From the NCBI GenBank assembly GCA_020724845.1, contig DYGE01000001.1, forward strand, positions 58,218 through 122,217: 64,000 bases of DNA. Direction: 5' to 3'. The position numbers and the translations under genes were made by a program. Of the stretch, positions 7,043 to 62,698 are shown piece after piece. This stretch comes from Candidatus Paceibacter sp. GTDB lineage: Bacteria; Patescibacteriota; Minisyncoccia; UBA6257; 02-FULL-45-10c. The notes beneath the pieces were generated by a model. That model saw nothing but the letters and a program-made list of their open reading frames with translations. It had not been told where the DNA came from and made no database searches. Each line of letters begins with the position of its first letter. Position 1 is the first letter of the stretch.

Positions 7043-7807
7043 TTATAAATAATCTAATAATCTTTCGTATTCAATAAACCGGAAGATCTTGTATCCCCAG
7101 ATAATTAGCAAGTTCATATTATCGGTGAATAAAAGAATTCCTAAAAGAATTAAGAAAATCCCTCCGATAAAAGAAATAGCGTTAAGATATTTCGAAAATT
7201 TATTAATATACCCGCCGGCGGAACCAATGCCAACGGCGATGAGAAGAAATGGTATTGCCAATCCCAAGGAAAAGATTAGCAGCAGAGCTGCTCCTTGCAG
7301 GGCGGTAGCAGAAGTAGAGGCAAGGAAAAGTATGGACCCGAGAATCGGACCTACGCAGGGGGTCCAACCAAGGGCAAATGCTGATCCTAATATGAACGAA
7401 TTTAGCGTTTTGCCTCGTTGAAAAATTTGAGGGACTTTAAATTGTTTTTCTGATGTCAAAAAAGGAATCTTAATCGCGTTCATCATAAATAGCCCGAAGA
7501 TTACCACAAAAACTCCTCCGATTCTGGTCAGCCAGATTCGGTAAGGCACCAATCCCCTGCCAATGAATCCTGCCAAAGTCCCGAAGGCTATAAAAATTAC
7601 GCTAAACCCAATAACAAAGGCCAGGCCGTTCAATAATATCTTCCAGCGCGCAGCTTTTTTCTTCTCTGGATCTTTTAAGTCTTCTAATGAAACGCCACTG
7701 ATAAATCCTAAATACGCAGGAACCAGCGGCAAGGTGCAGGGAGCTAAGAATGTGAGTAGGCCGGCGATGAATGCCGGGATAGCTAATGAAAAAATTTGAG
7801 CCTCCAT
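7043..7807 (-). CDS. ccdA: Cytochrome c biogenesis / thiol-disulfide transporter CcdA (DsbD family)
   Basis: CTLPLVP motif in a polytopic membrane protein. Confidence 0.85.
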   Translation of the reverse strand: MEAQIFSLAIPAFIAGLLTFLAPCTLPLVPAYLGFISGVSLEDLKDPEKKKAARWKILLNGLAFVIGFSVIFIAFGTLAGFIGRGLVPYRIWLTRIGGVFVVIFGLFMMNAIKIPFLTSEKQFKVPQIFQRGKTLNSFILGSAFALGWTPCVGPILGSILFLASTSATALQGAALLLIFSLGLAIPFLLIAVGIGSAGGYINKFSKYLNAISFIGGIFLILLGILLFTDNMNLLIIWGYKIFRFIEYERLLDYL

Positions 7808-7837
7808 AGTCGTTGGTTGTTAGTCGTTGGTTGTTAG
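7808..7837. repeat. Tandem duplication (2 x 15 bp, agtcgttggttgtta) spanning the tlpA stop and ccdA start
   Basis: Direct tandem repeat read from the sequence; the first copy encodes the TlpA C-terminus and the second sits just before the ccdA ATG. Confidence 0.7.
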
Positions 7838-8356
7838 TTCTAAAATGCGTCTGCGAATCTCTTCTAAGTCCATCGGTCCGCGCTTGTGTTGTAGAATATT
7901 GCCAGCGGCATCCACAAAAATAGTTTCCGGCATTGAGAATCCGCCTATGGACCGATAAAAAGAGTCGTCCGGATCAAGAAGAAAAACTAAATCATTCGTT
8001 ACGTCCAATTCGTCAGTGTATTTTTTGGCGGTTTCCAGCGGTTCAGCGCGGTCGATGGCGATAATGATTACTTGATCGCCGAACTCTTTTTGCGCCGCGG
8101 CGAACGCGGGCAATTCTTCAACGCAAAAAGGGCACCAGGCGGCCCAAGAATTTATAACCAGCGGTTGGCCTTCAAAATCTGACAAGCGCACTATTTCCCC
8201 TTCATAATTTTGCAAGCTAAAAGCAGGCGCTTTATCAAGTCTGTCTTCTTCTGTAACAACGTTCGCGGCCTGCCTTTTAGCTACTCCTGAAGACAACAAA
8301 AAAACAACCGCGATAATTCCCAAAATTATGTATAATGATTTCTTCATATTACTCAA
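7820..8356 (-). CDS. TlpA/ResA-like thiol-disulfide oxidoreductase (thioredoxin fold, secreted)
   Basis: Signal/TM N-terminus and a WCPFC CxxC motif. Confidence 0.85.
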   Translation of the reverse strand: MSNMKKSLYIILGIIAVVFLLSSGVAKRQAANVVTEEDRLDKAPAFSLQNYEGEIVRLSDFEGQPLVINSWAAWCPFCVEELPAFAAAQKEFGDQVIIIAIDRAEPLETAKKYTDELDVTNDLVFLLDPDDSFYRSIGGFSMPETIFVDAAGNILQHKRGPMDLEEIRRRILELTTND

Positions 8357-15918: not shown

Positions 15919-16014
15919 TGCGAGCAGGAAGGCGGCGATGACCGCAGCGGTTATGACATACGGATAGAAAGGCAGGTACAGATCGTAATACAGCTTATAG
16001 AGCAGGTTGTTCAT
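15916..16014 (-). CDS. Small ORF (32 aa): Tyr-rich N-terminus then hydrophobic tail; GC-rich
   Basis: GGAGGAAGT Shine-Dalgarno 0 nt upstream of ATG; its own TTGACA-17-TAAAAT promoter at 16062..16090 (minus); terminator directly after the stop. Sequence MNNLLYKLYYDLYLPFYPYVITAAVIAAFLLA. Below the 60-codon cutoff of the ORF track. Confidence 0.4.
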   Translation of the reverse strand: MNNLLYKLYYDLYLPFYPYVITAAVIAAFLLA

Positions 16015-16095
16015 ACTTCCTCCTTTACAGATTGGAATGCGCAGCTTTTCAGCTTGTATGCATTTTATCATATTTATGAGTTTATGTCAAGTGAA

Positions 16096-41630: not shown

Positions 41631-41650
41631 ATAAATTATGATAACACCCA

Positions 41651-41718
41651 TTGACAAATTGTACAATCTATGCTATAGTTCTCTGGTAAAGTAGCCGTCC
41701 CCTGTGAGGGGCGTTTTT
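41651..41718 (+). promoter_or_regulatory. Promoter TTGACA-17-TATAGT followed ~15 nt later by an intrinsic terminator hairpin (cgtcccctgtgaggggcg + TTTTT) in the 3D-domain gene leader
   Basis: -35 at 41651-41656, -10 at 41674-41679, hairpin at 41696-41713 then T-run; the ATG of the next gene is at 41731. Confidence 0.5.
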
Positions 41719-61181: not shown

Positions 61182-61505
61182 TTAGTGATCAGCCAATTTG
61201 TCTTTCAGCCGCAAAAGGTCTTTTTTTAGGCGGTCTTTTACCCTATCAATCGCCGCGTGCATATCTTCGTTTGTTTCTTCAATCCTAAGCAGCGGATTGC
61301 CAGGCAATTGCAAATTCGCCTCGGCATAAAAAACATCTCCTTTATTGTGATGATTGGTAGTCCTGGAAACTTCTACGTCCAAAACAACCGCGTCATCCTT
61401 GTCCCATCGCCCTAAAAATTTCTCCAAGCCGCCCATTTTCTCTTCAACGAATTGGGTCAAGGCCGGAGTTAATTCAAAATTCTTTGCCTTAATTTGTAAT
61501 CTCAT
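61182..61505 (-). CDS. hpf: Ribosome hibernation-promoting factor / RaiA family
   Basis: 107 aa with YfiA/HPF fold signature; the usual hpf-secA arrangement. Confidence 0.9.
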   Translation of the reverse strand: MRLQIKAKNFELTPALTQFVEEKMGGLEKFLGRWDKDDAVVLDVEVSRTTNHHNKGDVFYAEANLQLPGNPLLRIEETNEDMHAAIDRVKDRLKKDLLRLKDKLADH

Positions 61506-61522
61506 AATAATAATCTATTAAT

Positions 61523-61575
61523 TTACCACCCGTTAAGAACACAACATTTTTAGTTATATGCTTAACGGGTGGTAA
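61523..61575 (-). promoter_or_regulatory. hpf 5' leader hairpin: 15-bp inverted repeat (ttaccacccgttaag / cttaacgggtggtaa) with 23-nt loop
   Basis: Read directly; starts 18 nt upstream of the hpf ATG. Confidence 0.5.
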
Positions 61576-61645
61576 TGGTGACCTCCAAATGCTATTTGTA
61601 TTTAGTGAGTGCTCTCTTACCACCCAAGTCAAGTATAAAACATTC

Positions 61646-61692
61646 CTAAAAAAATAAAAGAGCCCTGATCCTTAACAAGGAAAAGGGCTCTG
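61646..61692 (-). terminator. Terminator (agagccctgatccttaacaaggaaaagggctct + long T-run on minus)
   Basis: About 20 nt after the stop of the 48-codon ORF. Confidence 0.6.
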
Positions 61693-61709
61693 GGTAGGGC
61701 GCTGGAGTT

Positions 61710-61856
61710 TTACGGCGCCTGCGGTGGCTTAGCTACCTCGCTGCCTCTCCGCAGTTCCGCGAGTTGCAAGCACTCCTTCAGCTCATGCAGGCTGTAACCT
61801 TTGCCGAGGTAATAGCTGAACTGCTCCACGACTTCCTGCTTATCCGGCTTAGCCAT
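61710..61856 (-). CDS. Small ORF (48 aa), GC-rich, soluble
   Basis: GGAGGG Shine-Dalgarno 4 nt upstream of ATG. Own promoter TTGACA-17-TAACAT (TG-extended) at 61893..61921 (minus). Terminator downstream. Sequence MAKPDKQEVVEQFSYYLGKGYSLHELKECLQLAELRRGSEVAKPPQAP. Confidence 0.4.
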   Translation of the reverse strand: MAKPDKQEVVEQFSYYLGKGYSLHELKECLQLAELRRGSEVAKPPQAP

Positions 61857-61932
61857 CGATCCCTCCATACTCCTAAGATGTACTTACGGTAAATGTTATC
61901 ATATTTTTAACATTTTGTCAATATGAAAACCT

Positions 61933-61960
61933 AAGAGCCCCCGAAGGGGCTCTTAGGCTA
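61933..61960 (-). terminator. Hairpin (cctaagagcccc cgaa ggggctcttagg) with T-run on minus
   Basis: 12-bp perfect stem, immediately upstream of the small-ORF promoter. Confidence 0.45.
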
Positions 61961-62092
61961 CAAATAGCGGAGTAACATTCCTTTGTCGATATCATCGCAA
62001 AGGAATACTTACACTCACTATGCGTAGTATAGCATACTTCTCTCAATAAAGCAAGGGTCTCATAGACAATGTAATAGAGCGACGTTAAAATC

Positions 62093-62698
62093 TCACTTCT
62101 TAAACACAATAAACTTCATACCGATAAAGTTCCAGAAAAGGGCCACAATAGCCGCAGTAGCTGCGCCGGCATTAGCCCACAATTCGCCGGACACGCCAAC
62201 CGGAGCCCCAACCGTATTGACCACAAAAGAAGCGGTACTCACATTGATGCCGAATCCGATTAAATTGACTGTGAAAAATTTTATAAATTCCACTGTCCTT
62301 GGCCCATTGCCGGCATGAAAAGTCCAGTACTTGTTCCAAAAATAACTGTTAATTACAGCCACAATAAAAGAACTGGCTTTAAAAACCGAATAGTAAAAGC
62401 CGGCAGTTATGCCAGTTAAAAAAATCAGCAGATTTAAAATACCGAGGTCAACCAAAAAATTAAGTCCGCCGACTATGCCGAATTTAACGAATTGAAGCAT
62501 CACCGGCCACCGGCGGCTAAGCCAGTATCCGACCAAATAACCTAACGGGGTTATAACAGCCAGCGACAAGACCGCCGCGGCCCCGGCCGCGCTTCCGGTA
62601 AGAAGCCCTATATTTTTAAGAACCAGCCAAAAGAGAAAGCCGGCAACAATGCCCACCAAAAAACTTATTTTCAGATCTTGCTTGAAGAAATTATCCAT
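62093..62698 (-). CDS. GtrA-family membrane protein
   Basis: FVKFGIVGGLNFLVD ... NSYFWNKYWTF GtrA signature, plus extra N-terminal TM helices. Confidence 0.7.
   Translation of the reverse strand: MDNFFKQDLKISFLVGIVAGFLFWLVLKNIGLLTGSAAGAAAVLSLAVITPLGYLVGYWLSRRWPVMLQFVKFGIVGGLNFLVDLGILNLLIFLTGITAGFYYSVFKASSFIVAVINSYFWNKYWTFHAGNGPRTVEFIKFFTVNLIGFGINVSTASFVVNTVGAPVGVSGELWANAGAATAAIVALFWNFIGMKFIVFKK

What the first reader, a model, noticed from the sequence alone, without database searches (positions are those of the whole stretch)
61646..61925. Second self-contained GC-rich small ORF (48 aa) sharing an 11-nt promoter-spacer motif with the 32-codon ORF
The architecture matches the previous finding: a promoter TTGACA-17-TAACAT with TG extension, a ~35-nt leader, GGAGGG four nucleotides upstream of ATG, a 48-codon ORF (MAKPDKQEVVEQFSYYLGKGYSLHELKECLQLAELRRGSEVAKPPQAP), then a strong terminator. 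The two promoters share the exact 11-mer ttatcatattt (plus strand) at the same position relative to the -10 and -35 hexamers (16062-16090 and 61893-61921). Both ORFs are GC-rich islands in an AT-richer genome. This suggests a co-regulated or horizontally acquired pair of small-protein genes. The shared spacer element could be a regulator-binding site. A related tatgataaca also sits just upstream of the -35 of the 3D-domain gene promoter (about 41641).
Basis: seen in the sequence. Interest (0 to 1): 0.6.

Follow-up and report, generated by a model that had tools for sequence, protein, structure and literature searches.

The report
Orphan micro-gene inserted between paired RNAs
A real but lineage-specific 48-amino-acid gene, with its own promoter and terminator, has been inserted between a conserved small-RNA gene and the RNA leader it base-pairs with, upstream of the ribosome-hibernation gene of an uncultured CPR bacterium; the "shared promoter motif" is mostly ordinary promoter consensus.

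Summary
ORF48 looks protein-coding. Codon-position GC periodicity has p=1e-4, and its in-frame codon score sits at the median of this genome's real genes. It is an orphan: the only hit among ~15 billion proteins is itself, and no family or fold matches. Orthologous loci in relatives show the whole cassette (~61925..61646) is a lineage-specific insertion. It sits between two conserved non-coding elements that lie only ~25-80 nt apart in most relatives. Its GC3 (0.71) is foreign to this genome. The 11-mer (AAATATGATAA on the transcribed strand) overlaps the TRTGn extended -10 and the first three bases of the -10 hexamer. It is still rarer than consensus alone predicts (~0.02 expected), but the downstream leaders are unrelated and neither ORF is conserved. 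Co-regulation is therefore unsupported. The more interesting result is the flanks: an apparently undescribed sRNA-like gene (A) and an hpf leader (B). They pair at two sites, with compensatory changes in the second site across lineages and no Rfam match.

The parts
61893..61921 (-). ORF48 promoter: -35 TTGACA (61921..61916), 17-nt spacer, TG extension (61901..61900), -10 TAACAT (61898..61893). Contains the shared 11-mer (61896..61906).
   Evidence: Promoter scan, 10/12 match with TG; exact 11-mer hits; promoter-context statistics.
61857..61886 (-). About 30-nt 5' leader with the SD GGAGGG (61866..61861), 4 nt before the ATG.
   Evidence: Read directly from the sequence. SD use is a minority pattern in this genome.
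61710..61856 (-). ORF48, 48 aa plus stop: MAKPDKQEVVEQFSYYLGKGYSLHELKECLQLAELRRGSEVAKPPQAP. Orphan gene; predicted two-helix hairpin with a disordered Pro-rich tail.
   Evidence: ORF list; coding periodicity p=1e-4 and in-frame codon score 0.184 against 0.179+-0.074 for real genes; only self-hits; no Pfam, PHROG, NCBIfam, PADLOC or PDB match; AF2 pLDDT 78.6 with helices at 6-18 and 23-38.
61646..61691 (-). ORF48 intrinsic terminator: stem arms 61691..61677 and 61673..61659, then a T-run to 61646. It abuts the -10 box of block B's promoter.
   Evidence: Inverted repeat I2; terminator scan.
61925..62054 (-). Block A, a conserved sRNA-like gene. Promoter TTGCTT-17-TGcTATACT (62054..62026). RNA about 62020..61925: arm a1 UAGUGAGUG (62020..62012), hairpin (62006..61977), arm a2 GCUAUUUGUA (61968..61959), intrinsic terminator (61957..61930).
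   Evidence: blastn and nhmmer conservation across relatives; invariant promoter columns; terminator with 14 pairs; hairpin and arm covariation; inverted orientation in L007 and L142 shows it is its own unit; no Rfam match.
61523..61637 (-). Block B, the conserved hpf leader. -10 TATACT (61637..61632). P1 stem GGGUGGUAA (61625..61617) with UUACCACCC (61575..61567). Loop with b1 CACUCACUA (61611..61603), b2 UACAAAUAGC (61600..61591) and GGAGGUCACCA (61586..61576). Alternative hairpin 61575..61553 with 61545..61523, which re-uses the P1 3' strand.
   Evidence: P1 has 9/10 pairs with compensatory changes and none broken, and 9/9; alternative hairpin I1 and P1 I6; the downstream copy of the P1 5' strand changes with it in relatives and is followed by U-runs; 130 copies in 185 loci, upstream of hpf, murB, secA or rplC.
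61182..61505 (-). hpf (ribosome hibernation factor, S30AE family), the gene downstream of block B. Its ATG is 17 nt after the alternative hairpin and has no SD.
   Evidence: Pfam PF02482, E=1.3e-19; sequence.
62093..62698 (-). GtrA-family membrane protein gene, the conserved upstream neighbour of block A.
   Evidence: Pfam PF04138, E=1e-20; synteny in L003, L004, L011 and others.

Best explanation
ORF48 is a genuine, independently expressed orphan micro-protein gene.

Shown from sequence: a near-consensus sigma-70 extended -10 promoter would drive a short mRNA of about 240 nt. An SD-led 48-codon ORF on it would be translated into a soluble two-helix hairpin with a Pro-rich tail. A strong intrinsic terminator ends the transcript.

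Shown by comparison: the whole promoter-to-terminator unit (~275 nt, 61925..61646) is a lineage-specific insertion. It lies in a short, permissive spacer between the terminator of a conserved sRNA-like gene (A) and the promoter of the conserved hpf leader (B) that A base-pairs with.

Inferred: its foreign third-position GC and its leader-plus-SD design, in a genome where few genes have a recognisable SD and several look leaderless, suggest it came from outside or arose recently. It is probably not ancestral.

Inferred: the 11-mer shared with the ORF32 promoter is mainly the TRTGnTAA extended -10 core plus an A-rich spacer. It shows that both cassettes use the same strong promoter type, and perhaps share a source. 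It is not evidence for a dedicated operator.

The biochemical role of the 48-aa product is not determined. The most likely class is a small accessory or adaptor protein.
For: - Architecture verified.
- Coding signal: GC by codon position 0.67/0.35/0.73, permutation p=1e-4. The in-frame codon log-likelihood of 0.184 equals the median for real genes, and only 0.2% of off-frame chunks score higher.
- AF2 gives a confident helical hairpin from the single sequence.
- Orphan status: only self-hits in the word-indexed search of 5.8e9 clusters and in the exhaustive HMMER search of 1.84e9 representatives. It is a singleton cluster. There is no tblastn hit in 185 related loci or in phage genomes.
- Insertion: A and B are 24-82 nt apart in 34 of the 59 A-B spacings measured (all loci, including near-identical contigs), against 299 nt here. 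The closest relative by HPF identity (L088, 77%) has 42 nt.
- Foreign composition: GC 57.1% (top 0.9% of windows), and GC3 0.71 against 0.48+-0.08 for 48-codon stretches of real genes, none of which reaches 0.71.
- Other lineages carry unrelated promoter+SD+ORF+terminator cassettes, or larger genes, at the same slot.
- 11-mer: 5 of 16 promoter-like sites in the window have TATGnTA, and block A promoters in all relatives read TATGCTATAAT-like.
Against: - There are no homologues, so purifying selection cannot be shown.
- There are no expression or translation data.
- The second assembly is 100% identical, so it gives no population variation.
- A 48-codon open frame at this GC content is not rare by chance (about 0.17 by my own estimate).
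- The exact 11-position promoter match is still about 50-fold rarer than the window's promoter model predicts (0.02 expected). Some common origin or constraint is therefore not excluded.
- No donor lineage was identified for the proposed acquisition.
- No insertion scars (target duplications or terminal repeats) were found.
Confidence: 0.65

Rival explanations
1. ORF48 and ORF32 are a co-regulated pair, and the shared 11-mer in the promoter spacer is the binding site of a common regulator.
For: - The 11-mer is an exact match in the same register at two perfect TTGACA-17 promoters.
- Only about 0.02 such identical pairs are expected, even given promoter context.
- Both cassettes share atypical traits: a leader of 30-45 nt, a strong SD, GC3 of about 0.71-0.72, and a strong terminator.
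Against: - Eight of the 11 bases are the extended -10 itself (TATG-n-TAA); the rest is AAA in an AT-rich spacer.
- The motif has no dyad or repeat structure beyond this.
- The third, 1-mismatch copy at 41634 is in a different register.
- Sequences outside the promoter are unrelated.
- Neither ORF is conserved.
- Cassettes at the same slot in relatives use similar strong promoters, none carrying the 11-mer in this register.
Confidence: 0.1
2. ORF48 is not translated. The insert is a non-coding element (an sRNA gene, or a remnant of mobile or foreign DNA), and the ORF is incidental.
For: - It is a GC-rich island with its own promoter and terminator, as many sRNA genes are.
- It has no homologues.
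- A 48-codon frame is not improbable by chance at 57% GC (my estimate).
Against: - Strong codon-position periodicity and a gene-like in-frame codon score.
- GGAGGG at ideal spacing from the ATG.
- The stop codon lies just before the terminator.
- The predicted RNA fold is not unusually stable (z = -1.45).
- No Rfam match even at E<=10.
Confidence: 0.12
3. The A-B spacer is an active integration site. The complementary A/B arms, or the terminator hairpins, act as DNA recombination sites that capture small promoter-ORF-terminator cassettes, in an integron-like way. ORF48 would be one such mobile cassette.
For: - At least seven lineages have unrelated ORFs (35-180 aa) at exactly this slot. Five of the seven have an SD, and at least four have a near-consensus TTGAC[AT]-17 promoter and a terminator.
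- The flanks carry covarying inverted complementarity.
Against: - No integrase, attC-like site, target duplication or terminal repeat at the boundaries.
- The cassettes are not found elsewhere.
- The order of the A/B arms (a1..a2 / b1-b2) is not that of a simple DNA inverted repeat.
- A terminator-promoter gap is in any case a place where insertions are tolerated.
Confidence: 0.06

Closest known systems
Lineage-specific (orphan) bacterial small-protein genes / microproteins
   Same: A very short ORF with its own promoter, SD and terminator; no detectable homologues; a simple helical fold; located in an intergenic gap.
   Different: Here the insertion can be dated by synteny: it is absent from all relatives at a precisely conserved site. 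The gene's GC3 and leader-plus-SD design differ from most of the host genome's genes.
Extended -10 (TRTGn / TGn) sigma-70 promoters (established knowledge from Gram-positive bacteria)
   Same: TTGACA, a 17-nt spacer, TATGnTAnnnT. The shared 11-mer spans exactly this element.
   Different: The two cassette promoters are identical at 3 further spacer bases and at the non-consensus third -10 base (TAA). That is a little more than consensus alone predicts.
T-box riboswitch (works-like comparison for the flanking A/B module only)
   Same: A leader whose terminator/antiterminator choice could be set by a second RNA that contacts it at two separate sites. The antiterminator-type stem (P1) closes the region that is contacted.
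   Different: The partner is a dedicated, adjacent ~95-nt sRNA, not a tRNA. There is no Stem I, specifier or T-box sequence, and no Rfam T-box hit. In this window the hairpin is not followed by a clean U-run.
Antisense-RNA-mediated transcription attenuation (pT181 RNAI/II, pIP501 RNAIII; recalled from memory)
   Same: A small RNA pairs with a nascent leader that has mutually exclusive hairpins, one of them a terminator.
   Different: A is encoded in tandem on the same strand, upstream of its target. In two lineages it is inverted. It is not a countertranscript overlapping the target. The setting is chromosomal, upstream of hpf, murB, secA or rplC.
raiA-motif RNA (Rfam; found upstream of raiA/hpf in Firmicutes and Actinobacteria)
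   Same: A conserved non-coding RNA next to a ribosome-hibernation-factor gene.
   Different: No Rfam family, raiA included, was reported over block A or B at E<=10 here or E<=0.05 in relatives. The size and architecture differ, and block B also precedes murB, secA and rplC.

Membership tests
Sigma-70 extended -10 promoter | -35 TTGACA-like hexamer, 16-18 nt spacer, TGn, -10 TAnnnT | tested here: met
   TTGACA-17-TG-a-TAACAT, 10/12 match plus TG. This is a sequence match only; no transcription data.
Intrinsic (Rho-independent) terminator | GC-rich hairpin followed by a U-run | tested here: met
   15-nt arms, 87% complementary, followed by TTTTATTTTTTT.
Protein-coding gene (generic) | Codon periodicity and codon usage in frame; SD and start codon | tested here: met
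   Periodicity p=1e-4; in-frame LLR 0.184 against 0.179+-0.074 for real genes; GGAGGG-4-ATG.
Protein-coding gene (generic) | Conservation of the ORF, or evidence of purifying selection | tested here: not met
   Only self-hits; absent from 185 related loci.
Any curated protein family (Pfam, NCBIfam, PHROGs, PADLOC) or solved structure | Significant profile, sequence or fold match | tested here: not met
   No hit in Pfam or PHROGs. NCBIfam best E=0.11, far below its cutoff. PADLOC none. PDB by sequence E>=0.79. Foldseek against PDB E=7.6.
Type I toxin-antitoxin (small toxin plus antisense RNA) | Hydrophobic, membrane-spanning small peptide | tested here: not met
   ORF48 is charged and hydrophilic, with two amphipathic helices. 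ORF32 is hydrophobic, but it is a separate locus.
Type I toxin-antitoxin (small toxin plus antisense RNA) | Overlapping or adjacent antisense RNA gene | tested here: inconclusive
   No plus-strand promoter-like site within 61646-61925. The neighbouring sRNA A does not pair with the ORF48 leader (rank 1268 of 12792).
Known structured RNA (Rfam 15) for the GC-rich island or its flanks | Covariance-model match | tested here: not met
   The only gathering-score hit in the window is a tRNA. Nothing meaningful at E<=10 in 61450-62150, nor at E<=0.05 in four relatives.
Slot-peptide family of relatives (L005/L041, motif L-x-GYF-[ED]-[IF]-PK-x-K) | Shared C-terminal motif or detectable similarity | tested here: not met
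   L005 and L041 align at 36% identity with the motif. ORF48 lacks the motif and gives no tblastn hit to those loci. A profile search with the L005/L041 alignment finds only L041's own protein.
Integron-type gene cassette | attC-like recombination site, linked integrase, flanking repeats | tested here: not met
   No boundary repeats beyond chance-level 9-15-mers. The neighbouring genes are GtrA, HPF, SecA, a hydrolase and SIMPL.
sRNA-leader pairing module (flanking elements A/B) | Complementarity maintained by compensatory changes across lineages | tested here: met
   a2:b2 is 98.9% paired, and 4/10 pairs have double changes. The whole structure is 91.9% paired against 34-44% when slid, and 0/500 shuffles reach it. 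Cognate duplexes average -13.2 against -8.3 kcal/mol for non-cognate, 0/10000 permutations.
sRNA-leader pairing module (flanking elements A/B) | Physical RNA-RNA interaction and a regulatory effect on hpf | not testable with these tools
   Needs transcript mapping, in vitro binding, and termination or reporter assays.

The most novel reading that the evidence does not exclude
The ORF48 cassette has landed inside a previously undescribed riboregulatory module of Paceibacteria-type CPR bacteria. A dedicated ~95-nt sRNA (A) docks with two arms into the loop of the adjacent leader (B). That loop is closed by an antiterminator-type stem that competes with a terminator hairpin. The module would work like a T-box but use a private sRNA in place of tRNA, and would control hpf, murB, secA or rplC operons. 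The A-B gap would be a recurrent landing pad for strongly expressed orphan micro-genes such as ORF48.
Probability: 0.45. Interest if true: 0.7.

Novelty: new member of a known kind. Interest (0 to 1): 0.42.

Why it matters
ORF48 on its own is one more orphan micro-protein, useful mainly as a cleanly dated example of gene gain in a reduced CPR genome. It has foreign codon composition, and its leader-plus-SD design contrasts with a genome where few genes have a recognisable SD. The context matters more. The cassette led to a conserved pair of RNA elements that co-evolve by compensatory base changes and sit upstream of the ribosome-hibernation, cell-wall, secretion or ribosomal-protein genes of many uncultured Patescibacteria. 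No regulatory RNA of this kind turned up for this group in Rfam or in my literature searches. If confirmed, the pair would be a testable handle on how these ultra-small symbionts regulate translation shutdown.

Tried and rejected
1. The GC-rich island as a structured ncRNA: no Rfam hit at gathering score or at E<=10, and fold z = -1.45. Rejected in favour of a coding gene.
2. ORF48 homology: word-indexed search, exhaustive HMMER, Pfam, PHROGs, NCBIfam, PADLOC, PDB by sequence, Foldseek, tblastn against phages and against 185 loci. All negative.
3. ORF48 as a divergent member of the L005/L041 slot-peptide family: no motif and no similarity. The family itself has no further members.
4. A whole-sequence A-versus-B duplex-energy test did not discriminate (cognate -25.2, non-cognate -24.0). 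I replaced it with arm-restricted and alignment-based tests.
5. sRNA A targeting the ORF48 or ORF32 leaders: not supported (ranks 1268 and 2907 of 12792).
6. Insertion scars or mobile-element ends: only chance-level short repeats. The weak similarity between the A terminator and the ORF48 terminator (AGAGCCC..GGGCTCT) was judged not significant.
7. Block B as an rRNA-operon leader, prompted by boxA-like CCTTTGAAAATTCTAGC in the long forms: no rRNA gene nearby.
8. Block B encoding a conserved peptide: 1-2-nt indels between b2 and GGAGG across species break any frame.
9. ORF32 synteny through its 160-aa neighbour: the homologues lie in different contexts with no ORF32-like ORF. ORF32 was too short for the homology tool.
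10. My first claim that the genome is nearly SD-free (8/91) was softened. When any in-frame start is allowed, about ten long ORFs can have a GGAGG-type SD.
11. Literature searches for a described CPR sRNA or hpf leader found nothing relevant.

Full report
**1. What is in the sequence**

- The promoter is TTGACA (61921..61916), a 17-nt spacer, a TG extension and TAACAT (61898..61893).
- A leader of about 30 nt carries GGAGGG (61866..61861), four nt before the ATG at 61856.
- The ORF runs to the stop at 61710 and encodes the stated 48 residues. An in-frame upstream ATG without an SD gives a 52-aa alternative.
- A hairpin with 15-nt arms (61691..61659) and a T-run to 61646 follow.
- The plus-strand 11-mer TTATCATATTT occurs exactly twice in the 64 kb, at 16065 and 61896, in the same register in the two promoters.

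**2. Source organism**

SecA, HPF, GtrA and the other neighbours place the window in a CPR/Patescibacteria genome.
- The best SecA relatives are 74% identical. Many of the top hits are annotated Harrisonbacteria, Paceibacterota or Parcubacteria.
- Window GC is 44.5%.
- The same contig was assembled independently from SRR5011275 and is 100% identical.

**3. Is ORF48 a gene?**

My first suspicion was that a GC-rich island with its own promoter and terminator is a structured RNA.
- Rfam finds nothing, even at E<=10.
- The transcript is not unusually stable (z = -1.45).

The frame looks coding.
- GC by codon position is 0.67/0.35/0.73 (permutation p = 1e-4).
- Under a codon model trained on the window's long ORFs, the ORF48 frame scores 0.184 per codon. 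Real genes in-frame score 0.179+-0.074. Only 0.2% of off-frame chunks score as high.
- AlphaFold2 on the single sequence gives two helices (6-18 and 23-38) at mean pLDDT 78.6, then a disordered Pro-rich tail.

I therefore treat it as a real small-protein gene. No expression data exist.

**4. It is an orphan**

- The word-indexed search of 5.8 billion clusters and the exhaustive HMMER scan of 1.84 billion representatives both return only the protein itself.
- Its 90% cluster holds only the 48-aa and 52-aa versions of the same gene.
- Pfam, PHROGs, NCBIfam, PADLOC, PDB sequences, Foldseek against PDB and tblastn against phage genomes are all negative.

**5. It is an insertion**

I fetched 80 SecA loci from species-representative genomes and 103 metagenome loci carrying the block B core.
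- ORF48 is in none of them, as protein or as DNA.
- Two non-coding blocks that flank it are conserved: block A (~62054..61925) and block B (~61637..61523).
- The A-B spacer is 24-82 nt in 34 of the 59 A-B spacings measured (all loci, including near-identical contigs). It is 299 nt here.
- The closest relative by HPF identity (L088, 77%) has a 42-nt spacer.
- No target duplications or terminal repeats mark the boundaries.

**6. Composition and design are atypical**

- ORF48 has 57.1% GC, in the top 0.9% of 147-nt windows.
- Its GC3 is 0.71. No 48-codon stretch of the 59 long ORFs reaches that (mean 0.48, sd 0.08).
- ORF32 is unremarkable in total GC (50%) but has GC3 of 0.72.
- Few of the window's genes have a recognisable SD. 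Counting from the first start codon, 8 of 91 ORFs of at least 100 aa have one. Roughly ten long ORFs can have a GGAGG-type SD if any in-frame start is allowed.
- Several genes have a TATAAT box directly before the ATG, about 7-10 nt upstream where I counted by eye, which suggests leaderless mRNAs.

Both cassettes combine a leader of 30-45 nt with a strong SD, so they stand out from most of the window's genes. I infer acquisition or recent origin. No donor was identified.

**7. The 11-mer**

On the transcribed strand it reads AAA-TATG-A-TAA. That is three spacer A's, the TRTG/TGn extended -10, and the first half of the -10 hexamer.
- Of 16 sites in the window with a -35 and TGnTAnnnT, five have TATGnTA.
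- Block A's promoter reads TATGCTATAAT-like in the window and in all six relatives aligned.
- Using the column frequencies of those 16 sites, about 0.02 identical pairs are expected. The match is somewhat more than consensus, but it was noticed post hoc.
- Sequences downstream of the promoters are unrelated.
- The 1-mismatch copy at 41634 lies upstream of a -35 hexamer, so it is in a different register.
- ORF32 is also a singleton cluster. It is not found next to homologues of its 160-aa neighbour.

The co-regulation idea remains unsupported, though it is not formally excluded.

**8. What the cassette was inserted into**

Block A looks like a gene for an sRNA of about 95 nt.
- Its promoter is conserved: the invariant alignment columns spell TTG...T.TG.TA...T.
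- The RNA has a 5' arm a1 (UAGUGAGUG) and a hairpin with a conserved GCGAUGAUAUCGAC loop region.
- A variable linker then ends in arm a2 (GCUAUUUGUA), followed by a 14-bp terminator.
- In L007 and L142 it is inverted relative to B, so it is its own transcription unit.

Block B is a leader.
- Its P1 stem is supported by compensatory changes: 9 of 10 pairs with none broken, and 9 of 9.
- P1 closes a highly conserved loop: GAGAGCACUCACU-AAA-UACAAAUAG-...-UUGGAGGUCACCA.
- In the window's clade, a downstream copy of the P1 5' strand changes along with it. It can pair with the P1 3' strand to form a longer hairpin.
- In relatives that hairpin is followed by U-runs, which is a terminator/antiterminator layout.
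- In this window the U-run is degenerate (AAUUAAUAGAUUAUUAUU). The hpf ATG follows 17 nt later with no SD.

**9. A and B co-evolve**

a1 is complementary to b1 (CACUCACUA). a2 is complementary to b2 (UACAAAUAGC), and the pairing can extend into the GGAG. Natural variants change both partners together:

| Locus | A arm | B arm |
|---|---|---|
| L003 | CGAUUUGUA | UACAAAUCG |
| L004 | CUACUUGUA | UACAAGUAG |
| L007, L025, L091 | CAAAUUGUG | CACAAUUUG |
| L014 | UUCUUCUGUG | CACAGAAGAA |
| L043 | CUCUAAUU | AAUUAGAG |

Quantitative tests:
- Restricted to the A linker and the B loop, cognate duplexes average -13.2 kcal/mol and non-cognate duplexes -8.3. None of 10,000 permutations reached the observed value.
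- On a 19-sequence alignment, the a2:b2 helix is 98.9% paired, and 4 of 10 pairs show double changes.
- The full five-element model (six helices in the tool's count) is 91.9% paired, against 34-44% when partners are slid by 1-3 columns. None of 500 shuffles reached any observed measure.
- The a1:b1 arm is nearly invariant, so the covariation support comes almost entirely from a2:b2.
- Scanning the whole window with A's two arms, B is the best site apart from A's own antisense strand (-33.0 against a background of -14.8+-4.0).
- The ORF48 and ORF32 leaders are unremarkable in that scan.

The arm order (a1:b1 and a2:b2) is not that of a simple DNA inverted repeat. It fits an RNA junction better. 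The physical interaction and any effect on hpf are inferred, not shown.

**10. Wider picture of B and the slot**

- The 130 B hits lie mainly upstream of hpf, murB (followed by hpf-secA in the examples I checked), secA or rplC.
- In the rplC-linked lineages, b2 has a different sequence and the A linker matches it.
- In some genomes B is split after CACUCACUA by a structured insert of 240-450 nt that contains a second complete B.
- No Rfam family matches any form of A or B. Literature searches found nothing comparable.
- In at least seven other lineages the A-B gap holds other genes.
- L005 (35 aa) and L041 (48 aa) share L-x-GYF-[ED]-[IF]-PK-x-K. The L041 peptide is a singleton cluster, and the L005 peptide is not in the protein collection at all.
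- L018, L135, L179 and L150 hold ORFs of 96-115 aa, and L101 holds one of 180 aa.
- Five of the seven have an SD, and at least four have a near-consensus TTGAC[AT]-17 promoter and a terminator.

The gap between A's terminator and B's promoter is therefore a recurrent place for new small genes. I think this is because insertions there are tolerated. An active capture mechanism is not excluded.

**11. Verdict**

The cassette is self-contained, atypical and lineage-specific. There is no evidence for a shared operator or for co-regulation.
- ORF48 is a new orphan micro-gene of ordinary kind, and its function remains unknown.
- The flanking A/B RNA pair is the part that deserves follow-up.

Noticed in passing
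window 62054..61925 (block A) and 61637..61523 (block B), minus strand: A conserved sRNA-like gene and the adjacent hpf leader are complementary at two sites (a1:b1 and a2:b2). The second site shows compensatory changes across lineages. B has a covarying P1 stem that competes with a downstream hairpin. No Rfam match.
   Followed up: yes
L108 ~7630-8130; L123 11980-12760 (minus); L150; L101: Block B is modular. In some genomes it is split right after CACUCACUA by a structured insert of 240-450 nt. The insert contains a second complete B copy, a boxA-like CCTTTGAAAATTCTAGC, and a long-range closing stem. No rRNA gene is nearby.
   Followed up: partly
L005 2884-3265; L041 1065-1405; L018 427-969; L135; L179; L150; L101: The A-B spacer of other lineages holds unrelated ORFs of 35-180 aa; several are full promoter+SD+ORF+terminator cassettes. 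The L005 and L041 peptides share L-x-GYF-[ED]-[IF]-PK-x-K but have no other relatives.
   Followed up: partly
L114 6180-6640; L089 1480-1860; L123: In another set of contigs the A-B module sits upstream of ribosomal protein L3 (rplC). There b2 reads AAGUxAAAAAACUGGAGG, and the A linker (for example CCUUCUGGUU) is complementary to it, including the GGAGG.
   Followed up: partly
L007 2230-2700; L142: Block A is inverted relative to block B and remains linked to it (about 180-190 nt away). This argues that A is a separate transcription unit acting in trans.
   Followed up: no
window-wide, for example the starts at minus-strand script coordinates 9168, 25377 and 43999: Many genes have a TATAAT box directly before the ATG (about 7-10 nt upstream where counted by eye) and no SD, which suggests leaderless mRNAs. 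Recognisable SDs are a minority. hpf itself has no SD, while block B contains a perfectly conserved GGAGGUCACCA that is not followed by a conserved start codon.
   Followed up: partly
window 41634-41680, plus strand: TATGATAACAT, the same extended -10 variant as the ORF48 promoter, lies immediately upstream of the TTGACA at 41651 of another perfect TTGACA-17-TATAGT promoter. This may be a tandem promoter arrangement.
   Followed up: no
window 15919..16090, minus strand (ORF32 cassette): ORF32 (MNNLLYKLYYDLYLPFYPYVITAAVIAAFLLA) is hydrophobic and scores as coding (0.223 per codon). It is a singleton cluster and is not found beside homologues of its 160-aa neighbour. A type I toxin-like membrane peptide is possible but was not tested.
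   Followed up: partly
window 61918..62109 (minus, 63 aa) and 61489..61632 (minus, 47 aa): The mechanical ORFs overlapping blocks A and B are artefacts. The 1-2-nt indels between species in these blocks break any reading frame.
   Followed up: partly
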